Assembly (NCBI GenBank): GCA_030692375.1
Contig: JAUYCD010000109.1
Location: 9,221-73,220 of the forward strand
DNA: 64,000 nt
Direction of reading: 5' to 3'
From: Candidatus Latescibacter sp.
GTDB taxonomy: Bacteria > Latescibacterota > Latescibacteria > Latescibacterales > Latescibacteraceae
Shown here: positions 1,580 through 26,855 of the stretch, piece after piece
How positions within the stretch are numbered: position 1 is the stretch's first letter
Layout of the letters: the number at the start of each line of letters is the position of its first letter
Notes under the pieces: generated by a model
Database searches by the model: none
What the model saw: the letters and a program-made list of their open reading frames with translations, nothing else
Told to the model about the DNA's origin: nothing
Translations under genes and position numbers: made by a program

Positions 1580-1772
1580 AAGTCGTGTTGTACTTAAAAA
1601 GAAAACGAGTTTTTTAACAACAGCCCCCTATCCCTCAATCTCTTTTCCCCTGTAGGGGGGCAAGGGAAGTCGTTGCTCAGCAGTCTGTTCCTGCCCCCTC
1701 CGGGAGAAGGATGTCCGAAGGACAGGAGGAGGGCTGTGTCAAACAATCTCGACTTTTGCAAAAGGCTCAATT
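1563..1772. mobile_element. MITE-like insertion of about 210 bp with 23-bp perfect terminal inverted repeats (aattgagccttttgcaaaagtcg / cgacttttgcaaaaggctcaatt) and GC-rich internal hairpins
   Basis: The TIRs were read directly at 1563-1585 and 1750-1772. The interior carries ccccctatccc..cccctgtagggggg hairpins. It sits inside the rhamnosidase reading frame. Confidence 0.75.
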
Positions 1773-4326: not shown

Positions 4327-4552
4327 GGTATTCATCCTCAAAAAGTGTATGTAATAGATGCCAAAACAGGATAGTATGACGTCAGTAAATATCATTGTTT
4401 AACGCCGAATCAATAGATGCCGAAACGGTTTTATCGTTCCCGCGAAGCGGCAACAAGTTCGGCATGACATGTTCATTTTGGGCAAAATCATAGGGCAGGC
4501 ACGGGGACCTGCCCCTACAATGTGCTCCAATTCTGTCTTCTGTCTTCTATCT

Positions 4553-9957: not shown

Positions 9958-11034
9958 TCAGCCCAGCGGATAGTTCCCATATTCCCGGACGGCGCCGTAA
10001 AATGCAAGGATATTTTCCAGCGGCACGTCCGGCTGAAAATTGTGCGAAGGCCCCAGGATAAGTCCCCCGCCTGGCCCGACCGTCCTGATACGCAGTTTCA
10101 CTTCTTCCTCTACATCATGGGGAGAGCCAAAGGGCATTACATCCTGGATATCCACTGTGCCCCAGAAGCTTAGATTTTTTCCGAAGCGCTGTTTCAGGTG
10201 CGCCGGGTCCATGGATTTCGGCTGGACGGCGTTCAGGATATCCACACCGATTTCGATGTATTCGGGAAGGAGGCTTTCGATGTTGCCGTCGCTGTGGTAG
10301 GCGATTTTCACATCGGGCTCTATCTTCCGGAATTCCTGTATCAGTGAGGCATACCGGGGTTTGAAGAATTCCCGCCATGTATCCGGAGAAACGATGAGTG
10401 AATGCTGGGTTCCGAAGTCATCCCCCAGCCAGAGAATATCCACTCCGAGTCCTGCAAGGGTCTTGCCGGTAACCAGTTGAAAGCCGTAAAGCTTATCCAG
10501 GAGAGCATGGGCGAAATCCTTGTTCAGCATCAGGTCTGCCAGGAATTCCTCATAACCGCGCAGATACCAGGCAGCTTCGAACAGGGTGCAGGGCATGCCT
10601 CCGACAATGACATGGGTACTGCCGTGCTCAGTGAGAAGCCTGCGGGCCGAATCATATCTCCAGGATTCGTGAGGGTCGGGACAGGAGAAAGAGGAGAGTT
10701 GGTTTCCATCGCGGAGGGGGCGTTTCACCATCTCCGTGTAGCGGCCGTGCGGGATGTCAACCCAGCGCCAGCCGATCCCCCATTCGCAGGTGTATTCCTT
10801 TTCTTCTCTGGCATAGTAGCTCGTGGCGATACCATGCCAGGCCACCAGGATGTCGTGCCCCATGACCAGCGGAAGTTCCGAGACCTTGCCGCTGTAGGCT
10901 TCGGCGGTAGAGTTCCGGAGCCTGAGATGCCGGGAGAGCTTTTCGGCGGCCTCGGGGGTAAAATCCGCATGAATGGGGACCCTGTCCGGCTCTTCGTGGT
11001 TGATGGCGGTCAGAACCCGTTCTCGTGAGGTCAT
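9958..11034 (-). CDS. Uroporphyrinogen-decarboxylase (URO-D)/MtaA-CmuA-family protein, paralogue 1
   Basis: About 358 aa with a URO-D-like fold signature (..EEPDRVPI..GGMPCTLFEAAWYLRGYEEFLADL..). The start is at MTSRERV after AAAGGAAA. Confidence 0.7.
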   Translation of the reverse strand: MTSRERVLTAINHEEPDRVPIHADFTPEAAEKLSRHLRLRNSTAEAYSGKVSELPLVMGHDILVAWHGIATSYYAREEKEYTCEWGIGWRWVDIPHGRYTEMVKRPLRDGNQLSSFSCPDPHESWRYDSARRLLTEHGSTHVIVGGMPCTLFEAAWYLRGYEEFLADLMLNKDFAHALLDKLYGFQLVTGKTLAGLGVDILWLGDDFGTQHSLIVSPDTWREFFKPRYASLIQEFRKIEPDVKIAYHSDGNIESLLPEYIEIGVDILNAVQPKSMDPAHLKQRFGKNLSFWGTVDIQDVMPFGSPHDVEEEVKLRIRTVGPGGGLILGPSHNFQPDVPLENILAFYGAVREYGNYPLG

Positions 11035-11394
11035 GAGTGAGTTTCCTTTTCGATTCATGGAAAAGACAACATCAGGGTTTTCCCCTCGCCCGTTTATGGG
11101 AGAGGAGACATGGGGTGAGGGCAAAAGCGTTTCAGTGCTAAAATTAGGAAAAGCTTCCGTGGAGTCAAGAGTATTTGTCAGAGTGAAGAAAAAAGGCGGA
11201 CAAGATTCCCTGCCATATAGACATTACATATGTCATAATGACATCAGGCCGTATAATTCAAGGGATAATTTGTAATGTACTCTATTCGCATGTAATTATT
11301 AATACAAGAGTTACATTAAATGTACATGCTTGGCGCGTTTTTTGCGCAGATTCTATTACCTAAGAAGATTATAACTTGATAAGGAGGAAGTACT

Positions 11395-13338
11395 ATGGCA
11401 AAAACAATTGGCATTGATTTGGGGACAACCAACTCGGTGGTGGCTGTACTCGAAGGAGGGCAGCCGGTTGTTATTCCGAACCAGGAAGGCGGGAGAACAA
11501 CCCCGAGCGTGGTTGCTTTTACAGATAAAGGCGAAAGGCTGGTCGGCCAGATCGCCAAACGGCAGGCTATAACCAATCCCCACCGTACCGTCTATTCCAT
11601 CAAAAGGTTCATGGGGAGAAAATACAATGAAGTCCTGAACGAAATCAAGACGGTTCCCTACAAAGTGGAAATGGGAGAAAACGAGACTGCCCGGGTCGAA
11701 ATAGAGGGAAAGCATTTTTCTCCGCCGGAGATATCCGCTCTCATTCTTCAGAAGATGAAACAGACCGCGGAAGATTATCTTGGCGAGAAGGTTACCGATG
11801 CCATTGTAACCGTCCCCGCCTATTTCAACGATGCCCAACGTCAGGCCACCAAAGATGCCGGCCGTATCGCGGGTCTTAATGTAAAGAGAATCATAAACGA
11901 ACCGACCGCAGCTTCACTCGCCTATGGATTAGACAAAAAGCATGACGAAAAAATTGCTGTATTCGACCTTGGCGGCGGAACATTCGACATCTCCATACTG
12001 GAGCTTGGCGACGGGGTATTCGAGGTGCTGTCCACCAACGGAGATACGCATCTCGGGGGAGATGATTTCGACCAGCGGCTGGTGGACTGGCTGGCTGATA
12101 ATTTCAAAAAACAGGAAGGAATCGATCTGAGAAAAGATCCGATGGCCCTTCAGCGGCTCAAGGAGGCTGCTGAAAAAGCCAAGATCGAGCTTTCGAACAC
12201 CCTGCAGACAGACATCAACCTCCCGTTTATTACCGCGGACGCCACCGGCCCGAAACACCTGAATATTACCCTGACCAGGGCGACATTTGAGGAAATGGTC
12301 AAGGACCTCATCGAACGTGCGCGCAAGCCGGTTGAAAATGCCCTCCGGGATGCCGGACAGAGTTCACAGCAGATAGACGAGGTAATTTTAGTAGGAGGCT
12401 CCACCAGAATCCCGAAAGTAGTGGACCTTGTACGGGAGATGTTTGGCAAGGAACCGCACAAAGGGGTCAATCCTGATGAGGTTGTTGCACTCGGCGCGGC
12501 AATCCAGGGAGGTGTTTTGACCGGTGAGGTGAAGGATATACTCTTATTGGATGTCACCCCTCTCTCTCTCGGAATCGAGACCCTTGGCGGAGTATTCACC
12601 AAGCTTATAGAACGGAACACCACCATTCCCACAAAGAAGAGCGAAGTATTCTCAACTGCCGCGGACAGCCAGACTTCGGTGGAAATCCATGTTCTCCAGG
12701 GGGAACGTGAGATGGCCGCCGACAACCGTACCATCGGTCGGTTCCATCTGGACGGCCTTCCTCCTGCGCCGCGGGGGATTCCGCAGATTGAGGTTACCTT
12801 TGACATTGACGCCAACGGAATATTGAATGTGTCCGCCAAGGACCGGGCGACATCCAAGGAGCAGAATATACGTATCGAAGCTTCCAGCGGCCTGAATGAG
12901 TCCGAAATCCAGAAGATGGTTAAAGATGCCCAGGTTCACGCCAATGAGGATAAGCAGAAACGCGATGAAATTCAAACCCGCAACCAGACCGACCAACTCG
13001 TGTATCAGACGGAAAAAAACCTGAAGGATCTGGGAGACCGTCTGGATGCTGACGCCAAAGCGAAGGTGGAGGCTGCGCTTGAACGGGCAAGACAAGCGCT
13101 GAAAGGAACGGATGCACGGGAAATCGCTTCGGCTCGCGACGGTCTCACGGCGGCCTGGCACGAAGCGTCTACCAAGCTTTACAGTCAGGGTGGGCCGGGT
13201 GGACCCGGCGGTCCTGGGGCGCAGGGTGGTCCGGGAGGTGCTGAAGGCGCTCCACCCACGGGAGAACCAAAGGGGCAGGAAAAGGGTACCAAAGGCGGAG
13301 GCTCCCCGGTTGATGCTGATTACGAGGTAATGGATTAA
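11395..13338 (+). CDS. dnaK: Molecular chaperone DnaK (Hsp70)
   Basis: [18 protein letters not shown]..; full-length Hsp70 with an AAGGAGGAAG RBS. Confidence 0.97.
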
Positions 13339-13509
13339 TATAATCCGCTGAAAGCCACCCTTAATCGGATTTTACTCCAACAATGCAGGGGTTAACTGCG
13401 GCAAACCCCTGCAGTTGTAAAGAATCTGTATACTTTCTCATGTAATTTTCAAAAAATCTTTGATACACGGCATGAAAAATACATATATTATATATCTATT
13501 TTTAAAAAA

Positions 13510-13536
13510 TTAGCATTCTCCATTGTCGAGTGCTAA
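13510..13536 (+). promoter_or_regulatory. CIRCE operator (HrcA binding site) upstream of groES
   Basis: ttagcattc-tccattgtc-gagtgctaa matches TTAGCACTC-N9-GAGTGCTAA. Confidence 0.75.
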
Positions 13537-13569
13537 TAGATCGTAAACCCCATCAAAGGAGGAGTACCA

Positions 13570-13860
13570 TTGAAAATTAAACCTTTGGCAGACAGAGTCA
13601 TTGTGAAACCTTCCGATTCTGCGGAAAACAAAACCCCCGGTGGAATTATTATCCCCGACACCGCGAAAGAAAAACCTCAGGAAGGTAAGATTGTGGCCGT
13701 AGGACCCGGCAGGATCGATGAAAATGGCAAGATCATACCCATGAATGTCAAGGTCGGAGAAAATGTTCTCTACTCCAAGTACGGCGGTTCCGAGCTGAAG
13801 TATGAAGGCGAGGAATACCTCATCATGTCCGAATCCGATATTCTTGCAGTAATCGAATAA
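13570..13860 (+). CDS. groES: Co-chaperonin GroES (TTG start)
   Basis: [37 protein letters not shown].. Confidence 0.93.
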
Positions 13861-13880
13861 CCTGTAACGGCTGACAGTAA

Positions 13881-15545
<1,665 letters not shown>

Positions 15546-15574
15546 AAAAGCAAAAGCAACAAGAAATACCGAAA

Positions 15575-15607
15575 GCGCCTGCAAAAAAAGCGGGCGCTTT
15601 TTTATTG
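15575..15607 (+). terminator. Rho-independent terminator after groEL
   Basis: agcgcctgcaaaaaaagcgggcgctttttt stem-loop plus T-run. Confidence 0.6.
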
Positions 15608-15679
15608 ATTTGCAATACGATATACGGTATATATTAAATCCATAAGAAATTTATACGGATGTTTTGAAAGGAATATTTC

Positions 15680-16009
15680 ATGAATGATCGGATACACTCA
15701 ATCCTGGCGATGTTCGAAGGTGATATTCCACCGTTGCTCCGTAATAATATCGTCAAAATACTCATATTTGGATCGTATGCCAGGGGCGAACCCACGAGTG
15801 AGTCCGACCTTGATATAGCGGTTATAGTAACAAAAAAAATCCCCAAAATGGTCCAGATGCTGGATGATTGCGCATACCGGGTTATGTGGGAATATGATTT
15901 CGATCCGGTTATATCGCTGAAAGTGTTCTCGGAAGATGAGTTTTCCGAAGCGGTGCGGTGCGGCTTTTCTTTTTATCGCAACGTTCTCGACAAGGGGATA
16001 CCGGTATGA
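15680..16009 (+). CDS. Minimal nucleotidyltransferase (MNT) inserted behind groEL
   Basis: ILIFGSYARGEPTSESDLDIAVIV motif. AT-rich cassette. A 30-aa overlapping ORF (16006-16098) may be the remnant of its HEPN partner. Confidence 0.65.
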   Translation: MNDRIHSILAMFEGDIPPLLRNNIVKILIFGSYARGEPTSESDLDIAVIVTKKIPKMVQMLDDCAYRVMWEYDFDPVISLKVFSEDEFSEAVRCGFSFYRNVLDKGIPV

Positions 16010-16117
16010 ATACAGTACAGGTGGCTGTTGCCTTCTGGATGAAAGCGATTATCTTTGTTGATGCTATGAGAGCGCTTCTTAATGACATTGATGAATGATA
16101 GAGAATCCTGACCTCCG

Positions 16118-16232
16118 GGCAGCGGCTCGCACGGCGGTGGAATGGGTGGAATAGGCAGAATGTACTAAAAAGCAAAAGCAACAAGATATCATGAACGCGC
16201 CTGCGAAAAAAAGCGGGCGCTTTTTTTATTGT
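16118..16232 (+). repeat. Diverged duplicate (about 88% identical) of the groEL 3' end plus terminator (15498-15607), flanking the MNT cassette on the right
   Basis: gggcagcggctcgcacggcggtggaatgggtggaataggcagaatgtactaaaaagcaaaagcaacaag..gcgcctgcgaaaaaaagcgggcgcttttttt compared with the groEL end. Confidence 0.8.
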
Positions 16233-16359
16233 CTTTACCTCGGAAAACTATTTTTCATATTTTCAAAAATTTCACTTGACAAACCAGCTTTTTCTTGTAT
16301 TTTACAAAGTAGATTTAAATATTAAATTTAAACATTCAATGAAATGCAGGTAATGAACG

Positions 16360-16734
16360 ATGTCCGAATTACGATTAGGCCGGGTGCAGATGAGAATCAT
16401 GCAGGTTCTCTGGAAAAAACAGAGGGCGACTGCGCAGGAAATTACCGATGAGATAAATAAGCTGGAGCCGATAAAACACAGCACAGTTCAGACCTTTCTC
16501 AGGGTGCTTGCGAAAAAGAAGATTGTAGCATTTGATGTTGAGAAACGCACATTCGTGTATTACCCGATGGCAAACAGCGAAAGTGTCACACAGAGCGCGG
16601 TCAGAAATTTTATCGACACCACCTTTTCCGGCTCGCTTGAAGGTATGATCTCCTACATCATCAAAAATGTTGACATATCTCCCGAACAGTTGGAAAAAAT
16701 CAAAAAATTACTGGATGAAGAGGAAAAATTCTGA
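16360..16734 (+). CDS. BlaI/MecI/CopY-family winged-helix transcriptional repressor
   Basis: MSELRLGRVQMRIMQVLWKKQRATAQEITDEINK..HSTVQTFLRVLAKKKIV..; about 120 aa; directly followed by an M56 peptidase gene with a 1-nt overlap. Confidence 0.8.
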   Translation: MSELRLGRVQMRIMQVLWKKQRATAQEITDEINKLEPIKHSTVQTFLRVLAKKKIVAFDVEKRTFVYYPMANSESVTQSAVRNFIDTTFSGSLEGMISYIIKNVDISPEQLEKIKKLLDEEEKF

Positions 16735-19700
16735 TGTGGGCCTTCGATTCTTTTGACCGGCTGATTGTCTGGTCAAACGTGATGGCGCCGATTCTGGCCG
16801 ATCTCATGCTATATTCGACCATCATCGGAGGGATTGGGCTTCTCGGCGCCCGTTTGCTGAAGAAGCGAGGGGCGGTGTATCAATCAGTGTTCCTGCGGCT
16901 CAGTCTTCTCGCAATCCTCATAACCCCTATGGCCGCGCTTGTTTTATCTTCATTTGATGTAATGGGTATCCGCCTGCCAATGGCGCAGGTAAAAAGACCG
17001 GATACTATCAGGGTGTTTGCGGCCCCGAATGCCTCCGCTCCGGTGCAAAAGAATCTCACATTTAAGCAACCTGCTCCGCAAGAACCAGTTCGCACCAATG
17101 ACACCCCTATCCGAGGGAAAGACTTACAAAATCGAAAAACCTCGCAGGCGTCTTCAACTGACATAGGCGCAGCGGCTTCAAATCCCGATGATTCACACAT
17201 GAAGAAAGAATCGCCGCTCTCTTCTCCTGGCGGAAACAGCATTTCGCCCGGGAAAGTTAAGGAAATCAACAAGCCTGGGATGTTTGCCGCTCTGTTTCCG
17301 TTTCTCTATGTGACGATTTCTCTTGTATGGATACTCGTTTCACTTATCCTTCTCCTTAAAGCTGTCTTCCACAATCTGTATATCAAATACCTGCTTCTCA
17401 CCGCATACGATGCAAATCCGGCGCATGTAAAAACCTGCCGTGCTCTCGCCGAAGAATTGCATGTAAAGCCGCCCCGGGTTCTGCAGAGTCCCCGGGTAAA
17501 AAGATCCTTTCTGGCTGGTTTTTTTAGTCCCACGATTGTGTTACCGCTTCATGAAAATGAAGTTTCCATGTCGAGCCGTGAGGTGTTTCTTCATGAGTTT
17601 GCCCACATGATCCGCCGAGACCACCTCTGGAACCTGGTATGCCAGATGGGGAAGATTATTCTGCCGCTTCAGCCGCTCATGTGGCTTCTTGCCCGTGAAA
17701 TAGAGGTAACAAGCGAATACGTATGCGATGATTATGTGGTGGTGTACGGAAAAAGCAATAAGAAATATGCTTTTCAGCTCTATTCTATGGCGAAAATGCT
17801 CCAGGCGGAGCGCCGTGAGGTATCCGCCGGAGTGGGAATTTTCTCGGTCCGCTCGTATCTCCTTAAACGGATCGAGCGGATTCTCGACCAGTCCCACTCC
17901 CGCTTTCTGACCTTGAAATTCCATGAAATGCTGTCATTTATCGTATTATTCCTTTCTTTCGTTGTGCTTACCGGTTTTATCAGTTTCAAAGGGGAGGCGC
18001 TCAAACGTAAGGCAATGAATGGGAATTCCTATTCCCGGGGAAACACGCATTCTTTATCGCTTACAAATAAAACTCAAGAAAATCAGCCATCATCTGCCGA
18101 TTTTAAAAGTGTTTCAGAGAAATCTGCTACCCCAACAGGCGTTACTTCACGTGAGAATCAAAAAGAAAATGCCGTTTCTCCAAAAACTGAGAATCTTTCG
18201 GAAGATGCTTCTTCTCCCTATGATATACTTGTACAAAGCGATTCCCCGGTAGTTTCAAATCCTTTTCTTGCCTTGCTGACGACTGAACCCAATTCTGATA
18301 CTCAGGCCGCACCGGTTACCAATACTCCGGCTGCTTCTGTCCCTGAACTGAAGCTTGAATCAGCAGCGGATGTCAGTGTTCCAACCGGAAGAACAGACGG
18401 TAAAAGCAGCAATGAAACGAAAGAGCACCTCGGTTCTCACAACGCTCTCGTAAAGCCTGAACCAATTGAAATGAAAATAAACCCTGGCATCGCCGCGAAT
18501 ATCATACCTGCCGGAATAAAATCTGAGCAGTTCGCCAGTGTGGTCACCCTTACCCAGAATTTCAGGAGCCTCACTCCTCTGGATATGCGGGCGAGGACAC
18601 TGCAATACACTTCAGCAAGCGCCAGCCAGCTTGACCCGGTCTGGTCGCCGGACGGTAAATCCATCGCTTTCACCGACGGTCAGTACGGGGTCTGGGTCGT
18701 TCCGGCGGAGGGGGGAGAGCCGGTTCTTGTGTATGACAACTATTATAAATCGAGTTGGCATGGAATAAAATTCCATTCTGTGGGAAGTATGGATACTTTC
18801 GGGTTCACACCGGACGGACAGAAACTCCTGTTCCAGTATTTCCTTATAGATGAAAATAGGGGAACAAAGGTTACCATGGAGCGGGACAAATACGGCAGTG
18901 TTACAATCTATCAGATCGATGGGCTGGTTCCGGTCATCATGAGCGTCGATATCAAGACCGGGACGATTGCCGCGGTGCGCCAGGAAGCGGAAAAAGGCCA
19001 ATACAGTCATAATGGAAGGTATCTGGCATTTATCAACTACGATCACCGGTATTTCACCGATCCCAACGAATCCTTCCATATGCAGGACCTGACGGTTCAG
19101 GACACCGGAACGGGCGAAATCAGGTATCTGACCTATGGGCAGTATCGTATTCAAAACTTCTGTTTTGCGCCTGATGGTGTTTCGGTGCTCGCCTATATGA
19201 CGCCTCGTGATGGAAGTTCTTCTGCGGGCATCTATCGTATCCCGCTCAAAGGAGGCAAAGCCGAAAAGCTTCCTGTCTCTCTTGCAGGCGAGAGCGGCGG
19301 CAACCTCCAGTGTTCGCCGGATGGCCGGTGGATCATCTACTCCGAAAAGAGATCGGATCAACACACCATCGTGTACTATGATGTATTGACCGGCGCCGAG
19401 CGGCGTAAGACGCTTCCGGCAGCCACCAAAGGGGTGAGCCTTTCCCCTGACGGAACAAAATTCTGTTCGGTGATGGACACGGGAATATCCGAACCGGTTT
19501 TTAAACTCTTCCTGTCCGGTTCTTTGAACATGCCCGCCGGTGTGCAGACGATCGCGCCGGTCGGATTCGCCATAAGGGGGAATTACCCGAATCCGTTCAA
19601 CCAGTCCACGGTTATCGAGTACACCCTTCCCGAATCCGGGGAAGTTACTCTTGAAATATATAACGTTCTCGGCCAGAAAGTCCGTAGGCTGGTATCCGAG

Positions 19701-19838
19701 ACCATTCAGCCGGGCCGTCATACTGCGAGGTGGGACGGCCGAACCGACAAAGGCCTGACAGTATCTACGGGAACCTATATCATGCGGCTCAGCATGGGTA
19801 AGTTTGTAGTCACGAAAAATATCATGGTGCTTAAATAA
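16734..19838 (+). CDS. BlaR1/MecR1-like M56 membrane metalloprotease fused to a TolB-like (PD40) beta-propeller region and a FlgD-Ig/T9SS-type C-terminal domain
   Basis: N-terminal TM helices plus the HEFAHMIRRDH zinc motif (M56). The C-terminal half has repeated ..SPDGK/SPDGR.. propeller blades and ends GNYPNPFNQSTVIEYTLPESGEVTLEIYNVLGQKVRRL..WDGRTDKG..SGTYIMRL. Confidence 0.8.
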   Translation: MWAFDSFDRLIVWSNVMAPILADLMLYSTIIGGIGLLGARLLKKRGAVYQSVFLRLSLLAILITPMAALVLSSFDVMGIRLPMAQVKRPDTIRVFAAPNASAPVQKNLTFKQPAPQEPVRTNDTPIRGKDLQNRKTSQASSTDIGAAASNPDDSHMKKESPLSSPGGNSISPGKVKEINKPGMFAALFPFLYVTISLVWILVSLILLLKAVFHNLYIKYLLLTAYDANPAHVKTCRALAEELHVKPPRVLQSPRVKRSFLAGFFSPTIVLPLHENEVSMSSREVFLHEFAHMIRRDHLWNLVCQMGKIILPLQPLMWLLAREIEVTSEYVCDDYVVVYGKSNKKYAFQLYSMAKMLQAERREVSAGVGIFSVRSYLLKRIERILDQSHSRFLTLKFHEMLSFIVLFLSFVVLTGFISFKGEALKRKAMNGNSYSRGNTHSLSLTNKTQENQPSSADFKSVSEKSATPTGVTSRENQKENAVSPKTENLSEDASSPYDILVQSDSPVVSNPFLALLTTEPNSDTQAAPVTNTPAASVPELKLESAADVSVPTGRTDGKSSNETKEHLGSHNALVKPEPIEMKINPGIAANIIPAGIKSEQFASVVTLTQNFRSLTPLDMRARTLQYTSASASQLDPVWSPDGKSIAFTDGQYGVWVVPAEGGEPVLVYDNYYKSSWHGIKFHSVGSMDTFGFTPDGQKLLFQYFLIDENRGTKVTMERDKYGSVTIYQIDGLVPVIMSVDIKTGTIAAVRQEAEKGQYSHNGRYLAFINYDHRYFTDPNESFHMQDLTVQDTGTGEIRYLTYGQYRIQNFCFAPDGVSVLAYMTPRDGSSSAGIYRIPLKGGKAEKLPVSLAGESGGNLQCSPDGRWIIYSEKRSDQHTIVYYDVLTGAERRKTLPAATKGVSLSPDGTKFCSVMDTGISEPVFKLFLSGSLNMPAGVQTIAPVGFAIRGNYPNPFNQSTVIEYTLPESGEVTLEIYNVLGQKVRRLVSETIQPGRHTARWDGRTDKGLTVSTGTYIMRLSMGKFVVTKNIMVLK

Positions 19839-19984
19839 GGAAAGGAGGTGAACCCGGCATCGAGTCTGTTCGGAGGCGCTCTCAATTGAAAGTACTAAAG
19901 CTTTTTCGGGGTCATGTATCGGGGTCAGATAAATTTCTCATCAACTTTTCAAAGTGCATCAAAAATGTAACGGAGGTTGGAACC

Positions 19985-22312
19985 ATGAAAACAAAAATCA
20001 TCACCCTGGTAATGATCCTGTGCGCACTCTGCGCCTTCTCAACGTTCGCTCTGCAGATCGATCCCGGAACGGGGACAAGGATCAGCGACTCGACACTACT
20101 TTCCCCGGTTTGGTCGCCTGATGGTAAATGGATTGCAAGTTTAGGTTTTGATGGGAAATGGTGGTTACAATTAACCCCATCTGAGGGAGGAGCGACAGAA
20201 AAGCTCTATACTCCAACCCCTTCCGAGGGATATATCCTTGGTTTAACAAAAAAACCCTGTTTCACTCCAGATAGCCAGGAGGTCGTGTTTACCTATTCTC
20301 TCATAGATAAGAATCGGGGAACCATTGTTAACATGGTAAATGGGAGTGGGTCAATTATTAATCAAATCCCTATAATAATGGCGGTCAACATCAAATCAAA
20401 AGCCACCCGTGTTATCCGTGAGGAAGCAGAAAACGCACGATATAGTCACAACGGCCGATATTTCGCCTATGTGAATTACGACCACCGGGCAGTGACCGAT
20501 CCGGCGCATGCCGAGCACCACTACTCACTTGCTGTCTATGACACGGTTACAAAGGAGACGAAATATCTCACCGACAACCTGGGAGTTAGAACTGGAGATT
20601 TTTCTTTCAGTTCGGATGATACCTATCTTGCAGTCTATATATCAGAATCCAATGGTCCTCCTAAAATCTACCGGATCAATCTGGATGGAAGCAACACAGA
20701 AGAGATAAGCTCATCAGATAATCCCTGGAAACTACCTTTTTTCTCCACCCCGGAATGTTCTCCTGGTGGAGGCTGGATCATGTATACTGCAAGTGAATCG
20801 ACCAATACTACAAGGGCATTGCTCGTATATGACACCGCAACAAAAAAAACCACACCTGTTTTCCCGATCAGCACTGTCCAAAATACCGCTGGCACCTGGT
20901 CCCCGGACGGCAAAAAATTCTGCTGCTCCCTGGTGTTAAAGAGTACGAACAAGGGAGCACTGTATACGTATGATTTTATTGAAAAAAATCTTGGCAAAGA
21001 ACCGGTTTTGCAGGAAGTCGCCCAATATATTCCACAAGGTTTCGGCACAAAACTGATCAACATCAATTTGAATGCCATCAGCCCATCCGACAGCAGCCTG
21101 TATCAGGGAACAAAAATACTGGAAACAAACCAGCAGTTTGCAGTCTGGTCGCCCGATGGCAAATGGATCGCGGTGTCAACACCGGTTGCAAATATGATCT
21201 GGATAGTGCCGGCCGGTGGAGGCGCCCCGATCAACGTGGCTGATTTTACTCATAACACGGTCTATAAGGGATATGAATTGGCTAGTTTCGGCTCTCCGAC
21301 CGTGACGGCTTTTACACCGGACAGCCAGGAAATTGTCTACAATACTACGATCATTGATGAGTCCAGAGGCACGACTGTCACAATCACAGATGAAATCACA
21401 TCAACCGGAACCAGACATTTTGGAGTTTCTGTTATGCAGCCCATAAATGTGATAAAGGCTGTCAATATTTATACCGGCGCGATCCGCCTGGTCATGGATG
21501 CCGCATCATGGGGAACGTTTAGCCATAACGGAAAATATTTTGCATATACTTCCAGCATTACTCCTAAAGATCCCGTAACGATCAATATCCTTGATATGGA
21601 AACGAAGAAATCACGAATCTTTTATAACGGCGGAGGTCAACCGGTCTGTTTCAACAAGGATGATTCTTATCTTGTTGCAATAGCCGGACCCGGAGGGGGC
21701 TATACAATGCTGCCTTTGGGCCAGGGTGGCGAAAAAAAGGTTCCCCAATATACTACCAGCATGTCGCCTGATGACCGGTTCGTAATCTATGGAGCTCTTG
21801 CAGGGGCCGGTGTAGTCATTCGACTGTATGATATGGTCCTGGGAAAAACGATCAATGTTTTACCCGAGGGAACAGAATTTCAAAGTTGGAACGGTTCATT
21901 TTCCCCTGACGGCAAAAAGTTCTGTTATCAACTGATAAGCAAGGTTGAACCAAGCTGGACCCGCCTCTATGTCCGCGATTTCAACCCGGCGGAATTCTCT
22001 TCGATAACCAGCGTCGATATCGCCAAACCTCTTGAATTTGCCCTCCAGGGTAACTATCCCAACCCATTTAACCCTTCGACATCTATCCAATTTTCCCTTG
22101 CAAAGGCAGGGAAAGTGAATCTGACGATATACAGCGTGGCCGGCCAGAAGATACGTGAACTCTTCACGAATACCGAAATGACCCCCGGGATTCACCACGT
22201 GCTTTGGGACGGCCGCGATGATCTTGGCAAGCCAGTCTCATCAGGCGTTTACATAACCAGGCTGCACATGGGCGGGAAGGCGCTTGCAGGCCGGATGCTG
22301 CTCATGAAGTAG
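19985..22312 (+). CDS. Secreted TolB-like beta-propeller protein with T9SS-type CTD; paralogue of the BlaR1-like C-terminal half
   Basis: Signal peptide MKTKIITLVMILCALCAFSTFA after GGAGG. It shares the blocks VWSPDGKWIA and YSHNGRYFAYVNYDHRAVTDP with the upstream gene. The CTD is GNYPNPFNPSTSIQFSLAKAGKVNLTIYSVAGQKIREL.. Confidence 0.75.
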   Translation: MKTKIITLVMILCALCAFSTFALQIDPGTGTRISDSTLLSPVWSPDGKWIASLGFDGKWWLQLTPSEGGATEKLYTPTPSEGYILGLTKKPCFTPDSQEVVFTYSLIDKNRGTIVNMVNGSGSIINQIPIIMAVNIKSKATRVIREEAENARYSHNGRYFAYVNYDHRAVTDPAHAEHHYSLAVYDTVTKETKYLTDNLGVRTGDFSFSSDDTYLAVYISESNGPPKIYRINLDGSNTEEISSSDNPWKLPFFSTPECSPGGGWIMYTASESTNTTRALLVYDTATKKTTPVFPISTVQNTAGTWSPDGKKFCCSLVLKSTNKGALYTYDFIEKNLGKEPVLQEVAQYIPQGFGTKLININLNAISPSDSSLYQGTKILETNQQFAVWSPDGKWIAVSTPVANMIWIVPAGGGAPINVADFTHNTVYKGYELASFGSPTVTAFTPDSQEIVYNTTIIDESRGTTVTITDEITSTGTRHFGVSVMQPINVIKAVNIYTGAIRLVMDAASWGTFSHNGKYFAYTSSITPKDPVTINILDMETKKSRIFYNGGGQPVCFNKDDSYLVAIAGPGGGYTMLPLGQGGEKKVPQYTTSMSPDDRFVIYGALAGAGVVIRLYDMVLGKTINVLPEGTEFQSWNGSFSPDGKKFCYQLISKVEPSWTRLYVRDFNPAEFSSITSVDIAKPLEFALQGNYPNPFNPSTSIQFSLAKAGKVNLTIYSVAGQKIRELFTNTEMTPGIHHVLWDGRDDLGKPVSSGVYITRLHMGGKALAGRMLLMK

Positions 22313-22617: not shown

Positions 22618-22881
22618 ATGAAACGTTCCTTCATTAACACTTCAACCGTTGAAGTGACTAACATATCAAAGCACGGTTTCTGGATACTGATCGGGAGCGA
22701 AGAGCTGTATTTACCGTTCAAGGACTTCCCCTGGTTCCAGAAAGCGACAGTGTCTTCCATTCTCAAGGTGGAACTTAATGGCGAGGAGCATCTCTATTGG
22801 CCGGAACTCGATATTGACCTTACCCTTGACTCGATTCGGTACCCGGAAAATTATCCCCTTATATCAAAATTCGATGCCTGA
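22618..22881 (+). CDS. DUF2442-family small protein (orphan, no DUF4160 partner)
   Basis: ..LNGEEHLYWPELDIDLTLDSIR.. resembles the DUF2442 core also seen at 52230-52505. Confidence 0.5.
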   Translation: MKRSFINTSTVEVTNISKHGFWILIGSEELYLPFKDFPWFQKATVSSILKVELNGEEHLYWPELDIDLTLDSIRYPENYPLISKFDA

Positions 22882-24287: not shown

Positions 24288-26855
24288 ATGAAACTTTCGC
24301 TCGAATGGCTCGGACAGTATGTTGACCTTGCCGACCTTTCACCAAAAGATATCGCCTATAAACTGACCATGTCCACCGCTGAGGTCGAGGATGTGGAAAT
24401 ACTGAAACGCGCGGTGAAAGGGATTATAGCCGGAGAGATTATCGAGATTGAACCCATCGATACCGGCGACAGCGGCAAACTCATGCAGTATGTCACTGTG
24501 AACACCGGCGCGGAAACCTTCAAAACCGTTTGCGGCGCGCCCAATGTGAAACCGGGCATGAAATCCGCGTTCGCCGCCCCCGGCGCTGTCATCGCTGACA
24601 ATTTTTTAGTGCAGGAGCAAAAGGTCTTCGGCCTCATGAGCCGGGGAATCCTTTGCAGTCCGAAAGAGCTGGGCTGGGGCGAATCTCACGCCGGGATAAT
24701 TGCGTTTCCGGACAGTCTGCCAAAAGGAACCGAGCTTGCCTCCCTCGTTCCCGAATACGACCATGTCATCGAGATCGACAACAAGAGCATCACGCATCGC
24801 CCCGACCTCTGGGGTCATTACGGTTTCGCGCGGGAGATGGCCGCCATCTACGGGCGTAGTCTTAAACCGCTGGAGTTGATCGATGCTTCGGAAGGAAATG
24901 ACCTGCCTCCCTTCCCCCTGCGTATCGATGACCGTGAGGGCTGCCCTGGGTATTGCTGCCTGGAAATCGACGGCCTTTCTCCGGCTTTTTCGCCGGTGGA
25001 GATGCAGTACCGTCTCCTGGCGGTAGGTCTCCGGCCTATTAACCTGCTGGTAGACTTGACCAATTACCTGATGTGCGAGCTGGGGCAGCCCATGCACTCG
25101 TTCGACGGCGAGAGGGTGAGGGATATTATCGTTGCTCCCTTCGGAAAAATCGGCGCCTACCAGACACTGGACAGTGTGGAGCGGAAGATGATTCCCGAAG
25201 ACCTGATGATCTGCGACCATGACGGCCCCATTGCTCTGGCCGGTATCATGGGCGGCGAGGATTCGGAGGTAAAAGAGGGGACTTCACGGGTGCTTCTGGA
25301 AAGCGCCAATTTCAATCCCGCCCGCATCCGGAGGACCATGATCCGTCTCGGGCTGCGCACCGACGCCGGAGTCCGGTTTGAAAAGGGACAGCCGCCCTAT
25401 CACATGGCTCTTTCCATACGGCGTTTCGTTCATCTCCTCCGCGAGGCGGGGCAGAAAGCGAGGCTCCGCTCGCAGCTTACCTGCGGGGGTGATACCGGAG
25501 AAAAAGGCCGCCTTTTGTCCATGGATAAATCGGACCTGACTCGTTCCATCGGTATGGCGATCCCTGACGGGCGGGTGCGGAAGATTCTCGTTTCGCTCGG
25601 CTTCGAATGCACGATCAACGACAAGGAGATTCTCCTTGTTATCCCGCCGCACCGGAGTGCGAGGGACATTTCCATTCCCCGCGACATTGTCGAGGAGGTA
25701 GCCCGCATCTACGGCTACGACAATATTGTCCCGTCCATGCCTGATATGAAGATGCGGTCCGGTACATTTAATACCGAACTCCAGAAACAGCATAAAATCC
25801 GCCGATTCCTGAGCCAGGCTAAGGGATTTTCAGAGGTCCATACCTACAGTTGGTATGATGACATATGGCTCAAACGGATGGCATACAACCCGGGAGAGAC
25901 GCTGACCCTGGTGAATCCCGCCGCTGAGAACAACACCCGTATGCGCCGTGAGCTTATTCCGAACCTTTTGGAACTGGTGGAAATGAATGCGGTTCACCGC
26001 GACACTATCTCATTTTATGAAATAGGCAACGTGTTCCATCCCGCTCTTCGGCAGGCTCAGAGCCCACTGAACTCTGAGCTTGTCGAAGAGTCGAATGGTT
26101 TCCGGCAAGCCATGCATCTGGGAGGAGTGGTTTATCAAACGGAAAAAATCGGGAATCTCCAGGAACTTTTCCTGCGTGTAAAAGGGACTGTGGAGGAGAT
26201 ATGCGCATTTACGAATGCGGGGATTCCGGAATTCACCGCCTCGCACTCTTCGGCAGGCTCAGAGCCCACTGATCGAGCACTGAGCTTGTCGAATCGAGCA
26301 CTGAGCTTGTCGAATCAAGCACTGAGCTTGTCGAATCGAGCACTGAGCTTGTCGAAGTCCGCCAAACCCTGGACTGTACCAGGCTCTTATCTCAATATTC
26401 ATATTGGTGATTCCTCCGCAGGGCAGATCGGGTATCTTACAGGCAATCTTTTGAACCTTTACGAGCACTTAACGCAGATTGTCTGGTTCGAGCTCCTGGT
26501 GGATGTCCTGGCCGGGCCGACTTTCCCCGATGTATTGTATAGCGAGATACCGGTGTACCCCGGTTCCTGGATGGATTTCTCCGTTTTAGCGGATAAGAAT
26601 CTGAGCTATGCCGTTTTGGGGGAAAGCATAAGGAAGTTTACTCATCCGATTCTCCGAAAGGTAAAGTACCTGTATCTTTTCAGCGGAAATATTAAGGGGG
26701 GAGAAAAAGGCCTGCCGGAAGGCGAAAAAAAAATTTCCTATACATTCCGTTTCTGGCTCGGGCTGAAGGATAGAACTTTGACTGGAGATGATCTATCACA
26801 ATTTAGGGAGTTTTTCCTTCGCTATCTGGAAGAAAACGGACTTGCGCTAAGATAA
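24288..26855 (+). CDS. pheT: Phenylalanine--tRNA ligase beta subunit carrying in-frame repeat-element insertions
   Basis: Domain order is typical of PheT (N-terminal tRNA-binding, B3/B4, B5, C-terminal). At 855 aa it is about 50 aa longer than usual because of the repeat-encoded segments ..RQAQSPLNSELVEES.. and ..SHSSAGSEPTDRALSLSNRALSLSNQALSLSNRALSLSKS.. Confidence 0.93.
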   Translation: MKLSLEWLGQYVDLADLSPKDIAYKLTMSTAEVEDVEILKRAVKGIIAGEIIEIEPIDTGDSGKLMQYVTVNTGAETFKTVCGAPNVKPGMKSAFAAPGAVIADNFLVQEQKVFGLMSRGILCSPKELGWGESHAGIIAFPDSLPKGTELASLVPEYDHVIEIDNKSITHRPDLWGHYGFAREMAAIYGRSLKPLELIDASEGNDLPPFPLRIDDREGCPGYCCLEIDGLSPAFSPVEMQYRLLAVGLRPINLLVDLTNYLMCELGQPMHSFDGERVRDIIVAPFGKIGAYQTLDSVERKMIPEDLMICDHDGPIALAGIMGGEDSEVKEGTSRVLLESANFNPARIRRTMIRLGLRTDAGVRFEKGQPPYHMALSIRRFVHLLREAGQKARLRSQLTCGGDTGEKGRLLSMDKSDLTRSIGMAIPDGRVRKILVSLGFECTINDKEILLVIPPHRSARDISIPRDIVEEVARIYGYDNIVPSMPDMKMRSGTFNTELQKQHKIRRFLSQAKGFSEVHTYSWYDDIWLKRMAYNPGETLTLVNPAAENNTRMRRELIPNLLELVEMNAVHRDTISFYEIGNVFHPALRQAQSPLNSELVEESNGFRQAMHLGGVVYQTEKIGNLQELFLRVKGTVEEICAFTNAGIPEFTASHSSAGSEPTDRALSLSNRALSLSNQALSLSNRALSLSKSAKPWTVPGSYLNIHIGDSSAGQIGYLTGNLLNLYEHLTQIVWFELLVDVLAGPTFPDVLYSEIPVYPGSWMDFSVLADKNLSYAVLGESIRKFTHPILRKVKYLYLFSGNIKGGEKGLPEGEKKISYTFRFWLGLKDRTLTGDDLSQFREFFLRYLEENGLALR
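26262..26345 (+). repeat. Four tandem copies of the 21-nt unit cgagcactgagcttgtcgaat inside the pheT reading frame
   Basis: Read directly from the sequence. The same gagcttgtcgaa/ttcgacaagctc core recurs at 26072-26088, 186-200, 350-430 and 56106-56160. Confidence 0.85.

What the first reader, a model, noticed from the sequence alone, without database searches (positions are those of the whole stretch)
16360..22312. BlaI/BlaR1-type switch with a TolB-like beta-propeller plus T9SS-type CTD as sensor, followed by a secreted paralogue
Canonical BlaR1/MecR1 proteins couple an M56 zinc-protease membrane domain (the HEFAHMIRRDH motif is present here) to a penicillin-binding sensor domain, and the protease cleaves the BlaI repressor. 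In this protein the sensor is replaced by about 550 aa of PD40/TolB-like propeller blades (repeated SPDGK/SPDGR) and ends in a FlgD-Ig/T9SS-type C-terminal domain. Such a CTD is not expected on a polytopic inner-membrane protein. The next gene, 19985-22312, is a Sec-secreted paralogue of exactly that propeller+CTD module and shares sequence blocks such as YSHNGRY(F/L)A(Y/F)(V/I)NYDHR. I read this as a possible regulated-proteolysis circuit that senses an extracytoplasmic macromolecular ligand, with the secreted paralogue acting as partner or decoy. I could not match this arrangement to any characterised system.
Basis: partly seen in the sequence, partly recalled or inferred. Interest (0 to 1): 0.75.

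Follow-up and report, generated by a model that had tools for sequence, protein, structure and literature searches.

The report
BlaI/M56 switch with propeller sensor
An uncultured Latescibacter bacterium carries a conserved three-gene unit: a BlaI-type repressor, a BlaR1-like membrane protease whose outer part is a TolB-like propeller ending in a secretion tag instead of a penicillin-binding domain, and a secreted relative of that propeller. It is an unusual variant of a family already known to be very diverse.

Summary
Window 16360-22312 encodes a BlaI/MecI-type repressor, a 1034-aa M56 (BlaR1-like) membrane protease, and a Sec-secreted paralogue. The protease has intact zinc-site residues: HEFAH, plus E328 aligned to BlaR1 E242.

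Two corrections:
- The sensor is not 550 aa of blades. It is a disordered tether of about 200 aa, one TolB-like propeller of about 310 aa, and a 90-aa T9SS type A C-terminal domain (CTD).
- The paralogue has two tandem propellers plus a CTD.

The fusion is real. About 42 clusters at 50% identity match end to end, and the named ones are Latescibacterota. The order blaI, then sensor, then a propeller+CTD gene held in all 13 informative sensor-gene copies, and 12 of these downstream genes are PD40 paralogues. A unique dyad sits just after the blaI promoter.

The best reading is an atypical BlaIR regulated-proteolysis switch that controls its own operon, including the secreted paralogue(s). Non-penicillin M56 sensors are already known to be the majority (254 architectures, PMC13492132), and M56-propeller fusions recur.

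Two features are undescribed. One is a strongly conserved CTD on an inner-membrane-anchored sensor. The other is the pairing of that sensor with paralogous cargo. The signal is unknown, and T9SS presence in this genome was not tested. Verdict: a new variant of a known kind, of moderate interest.

The parts
16197..16230 (+). Intrinsic-terminator-like hairpin plus T run. It closes the upstream unit, so the cassette has its own promoter.
   Evidence: A near-identical copy at 15571-15601 follows groEL.
16276..16303 (+). Sigma-70-like promoter: TTGACA, 16 nt, TATTTT.
   Evidence: The CTTGACAA -35 box is aligned in the seven promoter regions of A2 that include it.
16310..16330 (+). Candidate BlaI operator: dyad TAGATTTAA-N3-TTAAATTTA, immediately downstream of the -10 box.
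   Evidence: It is the only site in the 64-kb window, with 0.09 expected by chance. It is conserved at the same position in L085 and L086, and a similar dyad is present in L002. Binding was not tested.
16360..16734 (+). blaI-like winged-helix repressor, 124 aa.
   Evidence: Penicillinase_R 3e-26. It aligns over its full length to MecI and BlaI structures 1okr and 1sd4. The S. aureus N101-F102 cleavage position aligns to Y99-I100, inside the family-conserved stretch GS.EGM.SY(I/L)(I/V)KN.
16734..19838 (+). M56 sensor-protease gene, 1034 aa, translationally coupled to blaI by a TGATG overlap.
16779..16970 (+). TM1 and TM2 (aa about 16-79), with a KKR-rich cytoplasmic turn between them.
   Evidence: Hydropathy. 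AF2 helices 2-44 and 47-73.
16974..17273 (+). Periplasmic loop 2 (aa 81-180), disordered and rich in P, S, A and K.
   Evidence: pLDDT below 50. Mean identity 14% and length 84-125 aa across the family.
17274..17993 (+). TM3, cytoplasmic M56 zinc-protease core, and TM4 (aa 181-420).
   Evidence: Peptidase_M56. Aligns to S. aureus BlaR1 structures 8exp and 8exs. Mean family identity 45%.
17592..17606 (+). HEFAH zinc-binding and catalytic motif (H287, E288, H291).
   Evidence: Invariant in 13 of 13 sequences. Aligns to HEYAH 201-205 of BlaR1.
17715..17717 (+). E328, in the SEYVCDD motif. It aligns to E242 of S. aureus BlaR1, which I take from memory to be the third zinc ligand.
   Evidence: alignment. 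E or D at this position across the family; C331, D332 and D333 are invariant.
17994..18605 (+). Disordered periplasmic tether (aa 421-624).
   Evidence: pLDDT about 25. Sequence identity is 14%, but length is held at 179-226 aa in 13 proteins.
18606..19553 (+). TolB-like PD40 beta-propeller (aa 625-940), with six or seven blades.
   Evidence: PD40 and TIGR02800 hits. TolB 1.5e-15 by profile. AF2 pLDDT about 85. Foldseek finds TolB at rmsd about 4 A over about 298 columns, and S9-peptidase propellers.
19566..19835 (+). T9SS type A / FlgD-Ig-like C-terminal domain (aa 945-1034).
   Evidence: TIGR04183 39.7 bits against a cutoff of 23. It is the most conserved part of the protein, at 53% mean identity. 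AF2 gives a 7-strand beta-sandwich with pLDDT 90.6. Foldseek matches include FlgD and the T9SS proteins PorU (6za2) and PorZ (5m11).
19839..19984 (+). Intergenic spacer. It has no terminator and no dyad, and GGAGG lies just upstream of the ATG at 19985.
   Evidence: Conserved only in close relatives. RNA fold is no better than shuffles, z = -0.01. A promoter-like match at 19755-19783 lies inside the sensor gene.
19985..22312 (+). Secreted paralogue, 775 aa: signal peptide (aa 1-22), propeller 1 (aa 33-345; nt 20081-21019), propeller 2 (aa 376-679; nt 21110-22021), CTD (aa 685-775; nt 22037-22309).

Best explanation
This is an atypical BlaIR-family regulated-proteolysis switch of a diderm Latescibacterota bacterium.

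Proposed mechanism:
1. A BlaI-like dimer represses a promoter that reads blaI, the M56 sensor gene and, most likely, the downstream secreted propeller+CTD paralogue.
2. The sensor has the BlaR1 layout: four TM helices, with the zinc protease (HEFAH plus E328) facing the cytoplasm between TM3 and TM4, and the C-terminal region in the periplasm.
3. In place of a penicillin-binding domain, the C-terminal region carries a disordered tether of about 200 aa, one TolB-like propeller and a T9SS-type CTD.
4. An envelope signal is received by the propeller/CTD head. The most likely signal is the ligand that the paralogous secreted propellers also bind, or those proteins themselves.
5. The signal is passed through TM4, the protease is activated, BlaI is cleaved and the operon is induced.

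Shown here: domain identities, intact catalytic residues, predicted topology, conservation of the cassette, and a unique dyad at the promoter.

Inferred: BlaI cleavage, co-transcription, and the nature of the signal.
For: - Domain hits for all three proteins.
- Alignment to solved BlaR1 with HExxH and E242 matched, and to MecI/BlaI over the full length.
- Four hydrophobic segments and AF2 helices in the BlaR1 order.
- Translational coupling of blaI and the sensor gene.
- Gene order blaI, sensor, propeller+CTD gene in all 13 sensor-gene copies where the downstream gene could be read: window, L002, L003/L088, L004, two in the P0003 contig, the P0004 contig, L085, L086, L087, L094, L095. In 12 of them the downstream gene is a PD40 paralogue.
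- A promoter plus a dyad that is unique in the window, conserved in relatives.
- In L003, two paralogue genes have their own TTGACA promoters with perfect palindromes, as expected for members of one regulon.
- There is no terminator between the sensor gene and the paralogue.
- The general rule that M56 proteins without a transpeptidase domain are BlaI-linked sensors (PMC13492132).
Against: - No experiment or expression data exist for this family.
- The BlaI scissile residues N-F are not conserved; Y-I is at the aligned position.
- The ligand is unknown, and the propellers have no catalytic partner domain.
- This model does not explain why the sensor's CTD is the most conserved region of the protein (53%, against 33% for the propeller). 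A pure ligand-sensor model would predict a dispensable CTD.
- In L002 the downstream gene is a Reg_prop-type propeller+CTD rather than a PD40 paralogue.
- The window's paralogue has no operator of its own, so its regulation rests on inferred read-through.
Confidence: 0.55

Rival explanations
1. Secretion-coupled (T9SS-engagement) sensor. The conserved CTD at the end of a ruler-like tether of about 200 aa docks on T9SS components: either the periplasmic PorM/PorN-like ring, or the PorV/SprA translocon at the outer membrane. Occupancy, pulling or competition by the co-expressed CTD cargo would change the state of TM4 and the M56 domain. BlaI cleavage would then report T9SS activity or cargo load rather than an external ligand.
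For: - The CTD is the most conserved region of the sensor, with 22 invariant columns in 93 aa and 53% mean identity. It keeps the sequence blocks also conserved in the secreted paralogues' CTDs (PNPFN near the start, G.Y, terminal K).
- It passes the TIGR04183 cutoff and folds as a CTD-like beta-sandwich.
- Tether length is conserved although its sequence is not.
- The downstream genes always carry a CTD, even when they are not paralogous: L002, and the second BlaI-M56 unit in L088.
- The second most common M56 architecture is a TonB_C fusion (PMC13492132). From my own knowledge, TonB_C domains contact outer-membrane receptors, which would be a precedent for M56 sensors reaching outer-membrane machinery.
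Against: - No T9SS component was identified in the window.
- No paper links T9SS to Latescibacteria.
- FlgD-Ig/CTD folds are generic Ig-like modules and could be kept for structural reasons.
- No T9SS substrate anchored in the inner membrane is known to me.
- The second M56 in L088 lacks a CTD yet also precedes CTD proteins.
Confidence: 0.17
2. Product-sensing feedback by homotypic contact. The secreted paralogues, while in transit in the periplasm, bind the homologous propeller of the sensor as partner or decoy, so the switch measures the periplasmic level of its own products.
For: - The sensor and paralogue propellers are homologous at 35-38% identity and share lineage-specific blocks (YSHNGRY..NYDHR..TDP).
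- In a neighbour-joining tree, the sensor propellers do not form one clade. The P0007/P0009 sensors group with their own neighbours' propellers at 65% bootstrap, which hints at co-diversification.
Against: - Deep nodes of the tree are weak, and the window's sensor groups with its own paralogue in fewer than 40% of bootstraps.
- I know of no evidence that PD40 propellers of this type dimerise.
- L002 has no PD40 paralogue downstream.
- Docking could not be run.
Confidence: 0.15
3. Not a transcription switch. The M56 protein is a processing or anchoring protease, or a precursor whose propeller-CTD head is clipped off and exported like its paralogues. BlaI adjacency would reflect only ancestry.
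For: The head (propeller+CTD) has the same architecture as single-propeller T9SS cargo such as P0036. The disordered tether would be easy to cleave.
Against: - blaI and the M56 gene are tightly coupled in every locus (1-nt overlap here).
- 96% of M56 proteins sit next to a BlaI.
- The catalytic site faces the cytoplasm by topology, away from the head.
Confidence: 0.08

Closest known systems
BlaI/BlaR1 and MecI/MecR1 of Staphylococcus aureus and Bacillus licheniformis
   Same: - Repressor of the Penicillinase_R family next to an M56 membrane metalloprotease.
- Four-TM layout.
- HExxH plus a downstream Glu.
- The sensor domain lies C-terminal to TM4.
- The repressor gene is adjacent to the sensor gene and co-oriented with it.
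   Different: - No transpeptidase/penicillin-binding domain.
- A 200-aa disordered tether, a propeller and a CTD instead.
- The host is a diderm.
- NCBIfam blaR1_generic scores 59 bits against a cutoff of 400.
- The N-F cleavage site of BlaI is not conserved.
- Gene order is blaI first, then the sensor gene.
Atypical BlaIR systems: CenIR of C. difficile (PMC13492132), PvmSR of P. aeruginosa (bioRxiv 10.64898/2026.08.03.742534), and M56-TonB_C fusions
   Same: - An M56 sensor without a beta-lactam-binding domain, paired with a BlaI-like repressor.
- The signal is unknown.
- They belong to the 254 catalogued M56 architectures.
   Different: - CenR's C-terminus is short and disordered, whereas this sensor ends in two folded domains.
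- None of the common architectures listed in that survey (100 or more entries) has a PD40 propeller or a T9SS CTD.
- Here the downstream cargo is paralogous to the sensor head.
TolB (Tol-Pal system)
   Same: A PD40 beta-propeller of the same fold, at rmsd about 4 A over about 298 columns, located in the periplasm.
   Different: - No TolB N-terminal domain.
- No tol-pal gene context.
- TIGR02800 scores 42 bits against a cutoff of 343.
- It is a fold relative only.
T9SS type A CTD cargo proteins of the FCB superphylum
   Same: - A C-terminal beta-sandwich of about 90 aa that passes TIGR04183.
- The paralogue has the full cargo layout: Sec signal peptide, passenger, CTD.
   Different: The sensor has no cleavable signal peptide and is anchored by four TM helices. 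I found no description of a CTD on such a protein.

Membership tests
BlaIR family (M56 sensor-protease with BlaI-type repressor), broad sense | Peptidase_M56 domain above the Pfam gathering score | tested here: met
   68 bits against a cutoff of 31, aa 193-380.
BlaIR family (M56 sensor-protease with BlaI-type repressor), broad sense | Intact zinc site: HExxH plus the downstream Glu equivalent to BlaR1 E242 | tested here: met
   H287, E288 and H291 are invariant. E328 aligns to E242 of 8exp.
BlaIR family (M56 sensor-protease with BlaI-type repressor), broad sense | Four TM helices, with the protease loop between TM3 and TM4 and the sensor after TM4 | tested here: met
   Hydropathy segments 16-42, 46-79, 181-222 and 391-423. 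AF2 helices agree. This is a prediction only.
BlaIR family (M56 sensor-protease with BlaI-type repressor), broad sense | Adjacent Penicillinase_R (BlaI/MecI) repressor gene | tested here: met
   92 bits against a cutoff of 22.6. There is a 1-nt overlap with the sensor gene, and the repressor gene is present in all related loci.
BlaIR family (M56 sensor-protease with BlaI-type repressor), broad sense | Signal-dependent cleavage of the repressor by the sensor | not testable with these tools
   Needs biochemistry. The N101-F102 site aligns to Y99-I100.
Canonical BlaR1/MecR1 (beta-lactam sensor) | C-terminal penicillin-binding transpeptidase domain (PF00905) | tested here: not met
   No PF00905 hit. 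The C-terminus is linker, PD40 propeller and CTD.
Canonical BlaR1/MecR1 (beta-lactam sensor) | NCBIfam equivalog score (blaR1_generic NF000326) | tested here: not met
   59.1 bits against a cutoff of 400.
T9SS type A CTD cargo | TIGR04183 sorting domain at the extreme C-terminus, above the cutoff | tested here: met
   Sensor 39.7 bits and paralogue 30.2 bits, against a cutoff of 23. Pfam Por_Secre_tail is just below its cutoff (26.1 against 27), while FlgD_ig is above its cutoff.
T9SS type A CTD cargo | CTD beta-sandwich fold | tested here: met
   AF2 pLDDT 90.6 with 7 strands. Foldseek hits include PorU and PorZ, but also generic Ig-like and FlgD domains, so the fold is consistent but not discriminating.
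T9SS type A CTD cargo | Cleavable N-terminal Sec signal peptide and a soluble periplasmic intermediate | tested here: not met
   The sensor is a polytopic membrane protein with no signal peptide. The paralogue does meet this feature.
T9SS type A CTD cargo | T9SS machinery (SprA, PorV, PorU, GldKLMN) encoded in the same genome | not tested
   Only 64 kb of the genome is available, and the ORFs scanned against Pfam gave no T9SS-component match. Indirect evidence: CTD proteins are abundant in Latescibacterota and other FCB loci.
TolB | TolB N-terminal domain plus propeller, equivalog score, and tol-pal context | tested here: not met
   TIGR02800 scores 42.3 bits against a cutoff of 343. There is no PF04052 hit, and the neighbours are blaI and a paralogue.

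The most novel reading that the evidence does not exclude
The sensor is an inner-membrane-anchored T9SS 'pseudo-cargo'. Its conserved CTD, held on a periplasm-spanning tether of fixed length, engages the type IX secretion machinery. The BlaI/M56 switch would then convert secretion activity or cargo load into transcription of matching cargo genes. This would be a secretion-coupled feedback circuit, and the first regulatory use of a T9SS sorting signal.
Probability: 0.15. Interest if true: 0.8.

Novelty: new variant of a known kind. Interest (0 to 1): 0.45.

Why it matters
BlaIR-type switches are being recognised as a large and mostly uncharacterised class of envelope sensors, and for almost none of them is the signal known. 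This family offers an unusually informative case:
- The sensor head is a folded domain whose paralogues are encoded next door as secreted proteins. Sensor and output therefore probably see the same ligand, or each other.
- The head ends in a sorting signal for the type IX secretion system that is under strong purifying selection.

If the CTD is functional, this would link regulated proteolysis to T9SS cargo handling, for which I know of no dedicated cargo-level feedback sensor. If it is not, the cassette is still a clean, conserved example for annotating 'M56 family metallopeptidase' genes in FCB-group metagenomes as sensor/repressor/cargo units.

Tried and rejected
1. The genome-contig scan with the full-length alignment was swamped by the PNPFN motif of the CTD. 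It returned 80 unrelated CTD proteins from many FCB phyla and no new M56 locus. It was useful only to show that the CTD is widespread.
2. I tested whether sensor propellers cluster with their own neighbours' propellers. The neighbour-joining tree with 200 bootstraps gave 65% support in one lineage and under 40% in the window's lineage, so the result is inconclusive.
3. I tested whether 'sensor head = paralogue of the downstream cargo' is a general rule. The second BlaI-M56 unit in L088 (606 aa) shows no similarity to its downstream CTD protein, and L002's downstream gene is a Reg_prop propeller. It is not a general rule.
4. I looked for an RNA structure in the 146-nt spacer before the paralogue. 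It folds no better than shuffles (z = -0.01).
5. A classical BlaI TACA/TGTA operator: a TGTA-N3-TACA motif overlaps the -10 box in the window, and TGTA...TACA dyads with 4-nt spacers occur in L085 and L002, but not in L086 or L004. I preferred the TAGATTTAA dyad.
6. I considered a frameshift artefact that joined two genes, and rejected it.
7. I considered the 808-aa reading of the paralogue from TTG 19886. I rejected it in favour of ATG 19985, which has a ribosome-binding site and a signal peptide.
8. Literature searches linking T9SS with BlaR1 or with Latescibacteria found no papers.
9. Synteny with dnaK-groES-groEL is seen only in the window's own clade and not in L002, L004 or L086. I treat it as lineage gene order, not as a functional link.
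Full report
**What is there.** Window 16360-22312 holds three co-oriented ORFs.

The first (16360-16734, 124 aa) is a BlaI/MecI-type winged-helix repressor. It scores Penicillinase_R 3e-26 and aligns over its full length to the solved MecI and BlaI structures.

The second (16734-19838, 1034 aa) starts one base inside the blaI stop codon. Its profile hits are Peptidase_M56 1e-18, PD40, FlgD_ig, and the NCBIfam T9SS type A sorting domain TIGR04183, at 39.7 bits against a cutoff of 23.

The third (19985-22312, 775 aa) has an N-terminal hydrophobic signal sequence. It has two tandem propellers, each homologous to the sensor's propeller (BLASTP 2e-57 and 4e-46, 35-38% identity), followed by a CTD that is 49% identical to the sensor's CTD.

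The exact sensor protein is in NCBI as 'MAG: M56 family metallopeptidase [Candidatus Latescibacter sp.]'. The rest of the window is housekeeping: dnaK, groES/EL, pheST, thrS, SHMT, GMP synthase, ETF and others. This is therefore core chromosome, not an island.

**Anatomy of the sensor.** Hydropathy gives four TM segments: aa 16-42, 46-79, 181-222 and 391-423. The AlphaFold model places helices at the same positions.

HEFAH (aa 287-291) lies between TM3 and TM4. In a direct alignment to S. aureus BlaR1 (8exp), HEFAH matches HEYAH 201-205 and E328 matches E242. From memory, E242 is the third zinc ligand. H287, E288, H291 and the CDD motif are invariant in the family.

After TM4 come three parts:
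- About 200 residues that AlphaFold leaves disordered (pLDDT about 25). They are only 14% identical between homologues, yet their length stays at 179-226 aa.
- One propeller (aa about 625-940, pLDDT about 85). Its closest solved relatives are TolB (profile E 1.5e-15; Foldseek rmsd about 4 A over about 298 columns) and S9-peptidase propellers.
- A 90-aa beta-sandwich (pLDDT 90.6 when modelled alone). Its Foldseek matches include FlgD and the T9SS proteins PorU and PorZ, along with generic Ig-like domains.

**Is the fusion real, and how common is it?** The word-indexed search found 13 full-length proteins with the same architecture, at 29-59% identity. The ones that carry a taxon name are from Latescibacterota.

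The exhaustive profile search over 1.84 billion representatives found about 42 clusters (958-1097 aa) that match the profile end to end. It also found many single- and double-propeller+CTD proteins.

Two contigs show the gene split inside the linker (L087 and L095). Both are frameshifts, and L087 also carries several other fragmented gene calls. The fusion is therefore genuine, conserved and rare.

**Conserved cassette.** Thirteen sensor-gene copies had a readable downstream gene: window, L002, L003/L088, L004, two tandem copies on the P0003 contig, the P0004 contig, L085, L086, L087, L094 and L095. In all 13 the order is blaI, then the sensor gene, then a signal-peptide propeller+CTD gene. 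In 12 of the 13 that downstream gene is a PD40 paralogue of the sensor head. One locus has three in a row, and some have two-propeller versions. L002 instead has a Reg_prop-type propeller+CTD.

Upstream of blaI there is a terminator, a TTGACA-16-TATTTT promoter and, immediately after the -10 box, the dyad TAGATTTAA-N3-TTAAATTTA (16310-16330). This dyad is the only such site in the 64-kb window, with 0.09 expected by chance. It is conserved in position in L085 and L086, and L002 has a related dyad. In L003, two of the paralogue genes have their own TTGACA promoters carrying perfect palindromes.

In the window there is no terminator or dyad between the sensor gene and the paralogue, so read-through is the simplest assumption.

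**Mechanism.** The best-supported reading is an atypical BlaIR switch. BlaI represses the operon, an envelope signal received by the periplasmic head activates the cytoplasmic M56 site, BlaI is cleaved, and the operon is induced together with the secreted paralogue(s).

The identities, the catalytic residues, the topology, the coupling and the conservation are shown here. Cleavage, regulon membership and the signal are inferred.

The aligned BlaI cleavage position is Y99-I100 rather than N-F. It does sit in a stretch that is strongly conserved in this family.

**What the simple model does not explain.** The CTD is the most conserved part of the sensor, at 53% mean pairwise identity. The protease core is at 45% and the propeller at 33%. 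The CTD also has 22 invariant columns in 93 residues.

A CTD that was merely inherited when a cargo gene was fused to an M56 gene should decay, and this one has not. Together with the length-conserved tether and the invariable presence of CTD cargo downstream, this keeps open a more novel reading: the CTD contacts T9SS components, and the switch reports secretion activity or cargo load.

I could not test whether this genome has a T9SS. The window ORFs I scanned against Pfam gave no T9SS-component match, and no paper I could search links T9SS to Latescibacteria. CTDs of this type are abundant in Latescibacterota and other FCB-group loci.

A third reading, in which the paralogues bind the homologous sensor head, has only weak phylogenetic support (65% bootstrap in one lineage).

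**Comparison with what is known.** The 2026 CenIR paper surveyed about 15,000 M56 proteins. It found 254 architectures; only about 6% carry the penicillin-binding domain, and 96% lie near a BlaI homologue. 'No identifiable domain' and TonB_C fusions are the commonest types (PMC13492132). A P. aeruginosa atypical BlaIR system has also been described.

Among the top profile hits I also found M56 fused to PD40 propellers without a CTD, to WD40 propellers, and to CarboxypepD_reg repeats. Replacement of the sensor domain, even by a propeller, is therefore not new.

I did not find three things described anywhere: a T9SS-type CTD on a polytopic inner-membrane sensor, its strong conservation, and the pairing of the sensor head with paralogous secreted cargo in one operon.

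The protein fails the tests for canonical BlaR1: it has no PF00905 domain and scores 59 bits against the NF000326 cutoff of 400. It also fails the tests for TolB: 42 bits against 343, with no N-terminal domain. It is a member of the broad BlaIR family, a fold relative of TolB, and a carrier of a T9SS type A domain.

**Verdict.** This is a new variant of a known kind, of moderate interest, with a low-probability but attractive secretion-coupled reading that a few defined computations and experiments could settle.

Noticed in passing
window 26272-26356 (inside pheT, 24288-26855): A 21-nt unit repeated 4.0 times in frame (96% matches). It inserts (S/D)(N/R)(R/Q)ALSL heptads (RALSLSN RALSLSN QALSLSN RALSLSK) into the phenylalanyl-tRNA synthetase beta subunit, an essential housekeeping protein.
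   Followed up: partly
window 15571-15601 and 16197-16220: Two nearly identical terminator hairpins (GCGCCTGC-A-rich loop-GCGGGCGC plus a T run) flank the small nucleotidyltransferase gene (15680-16009, NTP_transf_2/Polbeta). The expected HEPN partner is reduced to a 30-codon remnant here, but is intact (136 aa) or shorter (91 aa) in the related P0003 and P0004 contigs. This looks like a decaying toxin-antitoxin insertion that duplicated the groEL terminator.
   Followed up: partly
L003 7070-7220, L003 3955-4115, L004 11150-11300: The 5' leaders of several paralogue genes share AACATTA(C/T)CCCT..AAACATGC ... CGCATGTT..AGGG.AAGGAGAT. This could form a long hairpin that encloses the ribosome-binding site. 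It is absent from the window's own spacer.
   Followed up: no
L088 8894-13639 and the P0003 contig: BlaI-M56 units come in tandem in some Latescibacterota. In L088, a second blaI plus a 606-aa M56 protein without propeller or CTD is followed by two unrelated CTD proteins. The P0003 contig has two complete blaI/sensor/paralogue triplets back to back. BlaIR control of CTD cargo may be a wider theme in this phylum.
   Followed up: partly
window 9958-22312, compared with the P0003 and P0004 contigs: The gene order URO-D, dnaK, groES, groEL, (NTase/HEPN), blaI, sensor, paralogue is kept in all three. pheS-pheT then follow in the window and the P0004 contig, while the P0003 contig continues with a second blaI/sensor/paralogue triplet and ends. 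The sensors are only 47-55% identical to the window's. Other clades (L002, L004, L086) have different neighbours.
   Followed up: partly
window 22618-22881: A DUF2442 gene lies just downstream of the paralogue. In the P0004 contig the same position also holds a HicA/HicB pair, so this intergenic stretch seems to collect small mobile modules.
   Followed up: no
proteins P0238, P0254, P0268, P0275, P0285, P0273: Other M56 sensors carry PD40 propellers without a CTD, one to several WD40 propellers, or six or more CarboxypepD_reg repeats (up to 1618 aa). This shows that large beta-rich periplasmic heads are a recurrent M56 sensor design.
   Followed up: partly
window 1594-4395 (-): A GH78 alpha-L-rhamnosidase (933 aa), fitting the polysaccharide-degrading lifestyle proposed for Latescibacteria (PMC4454575).
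   Followed up: no
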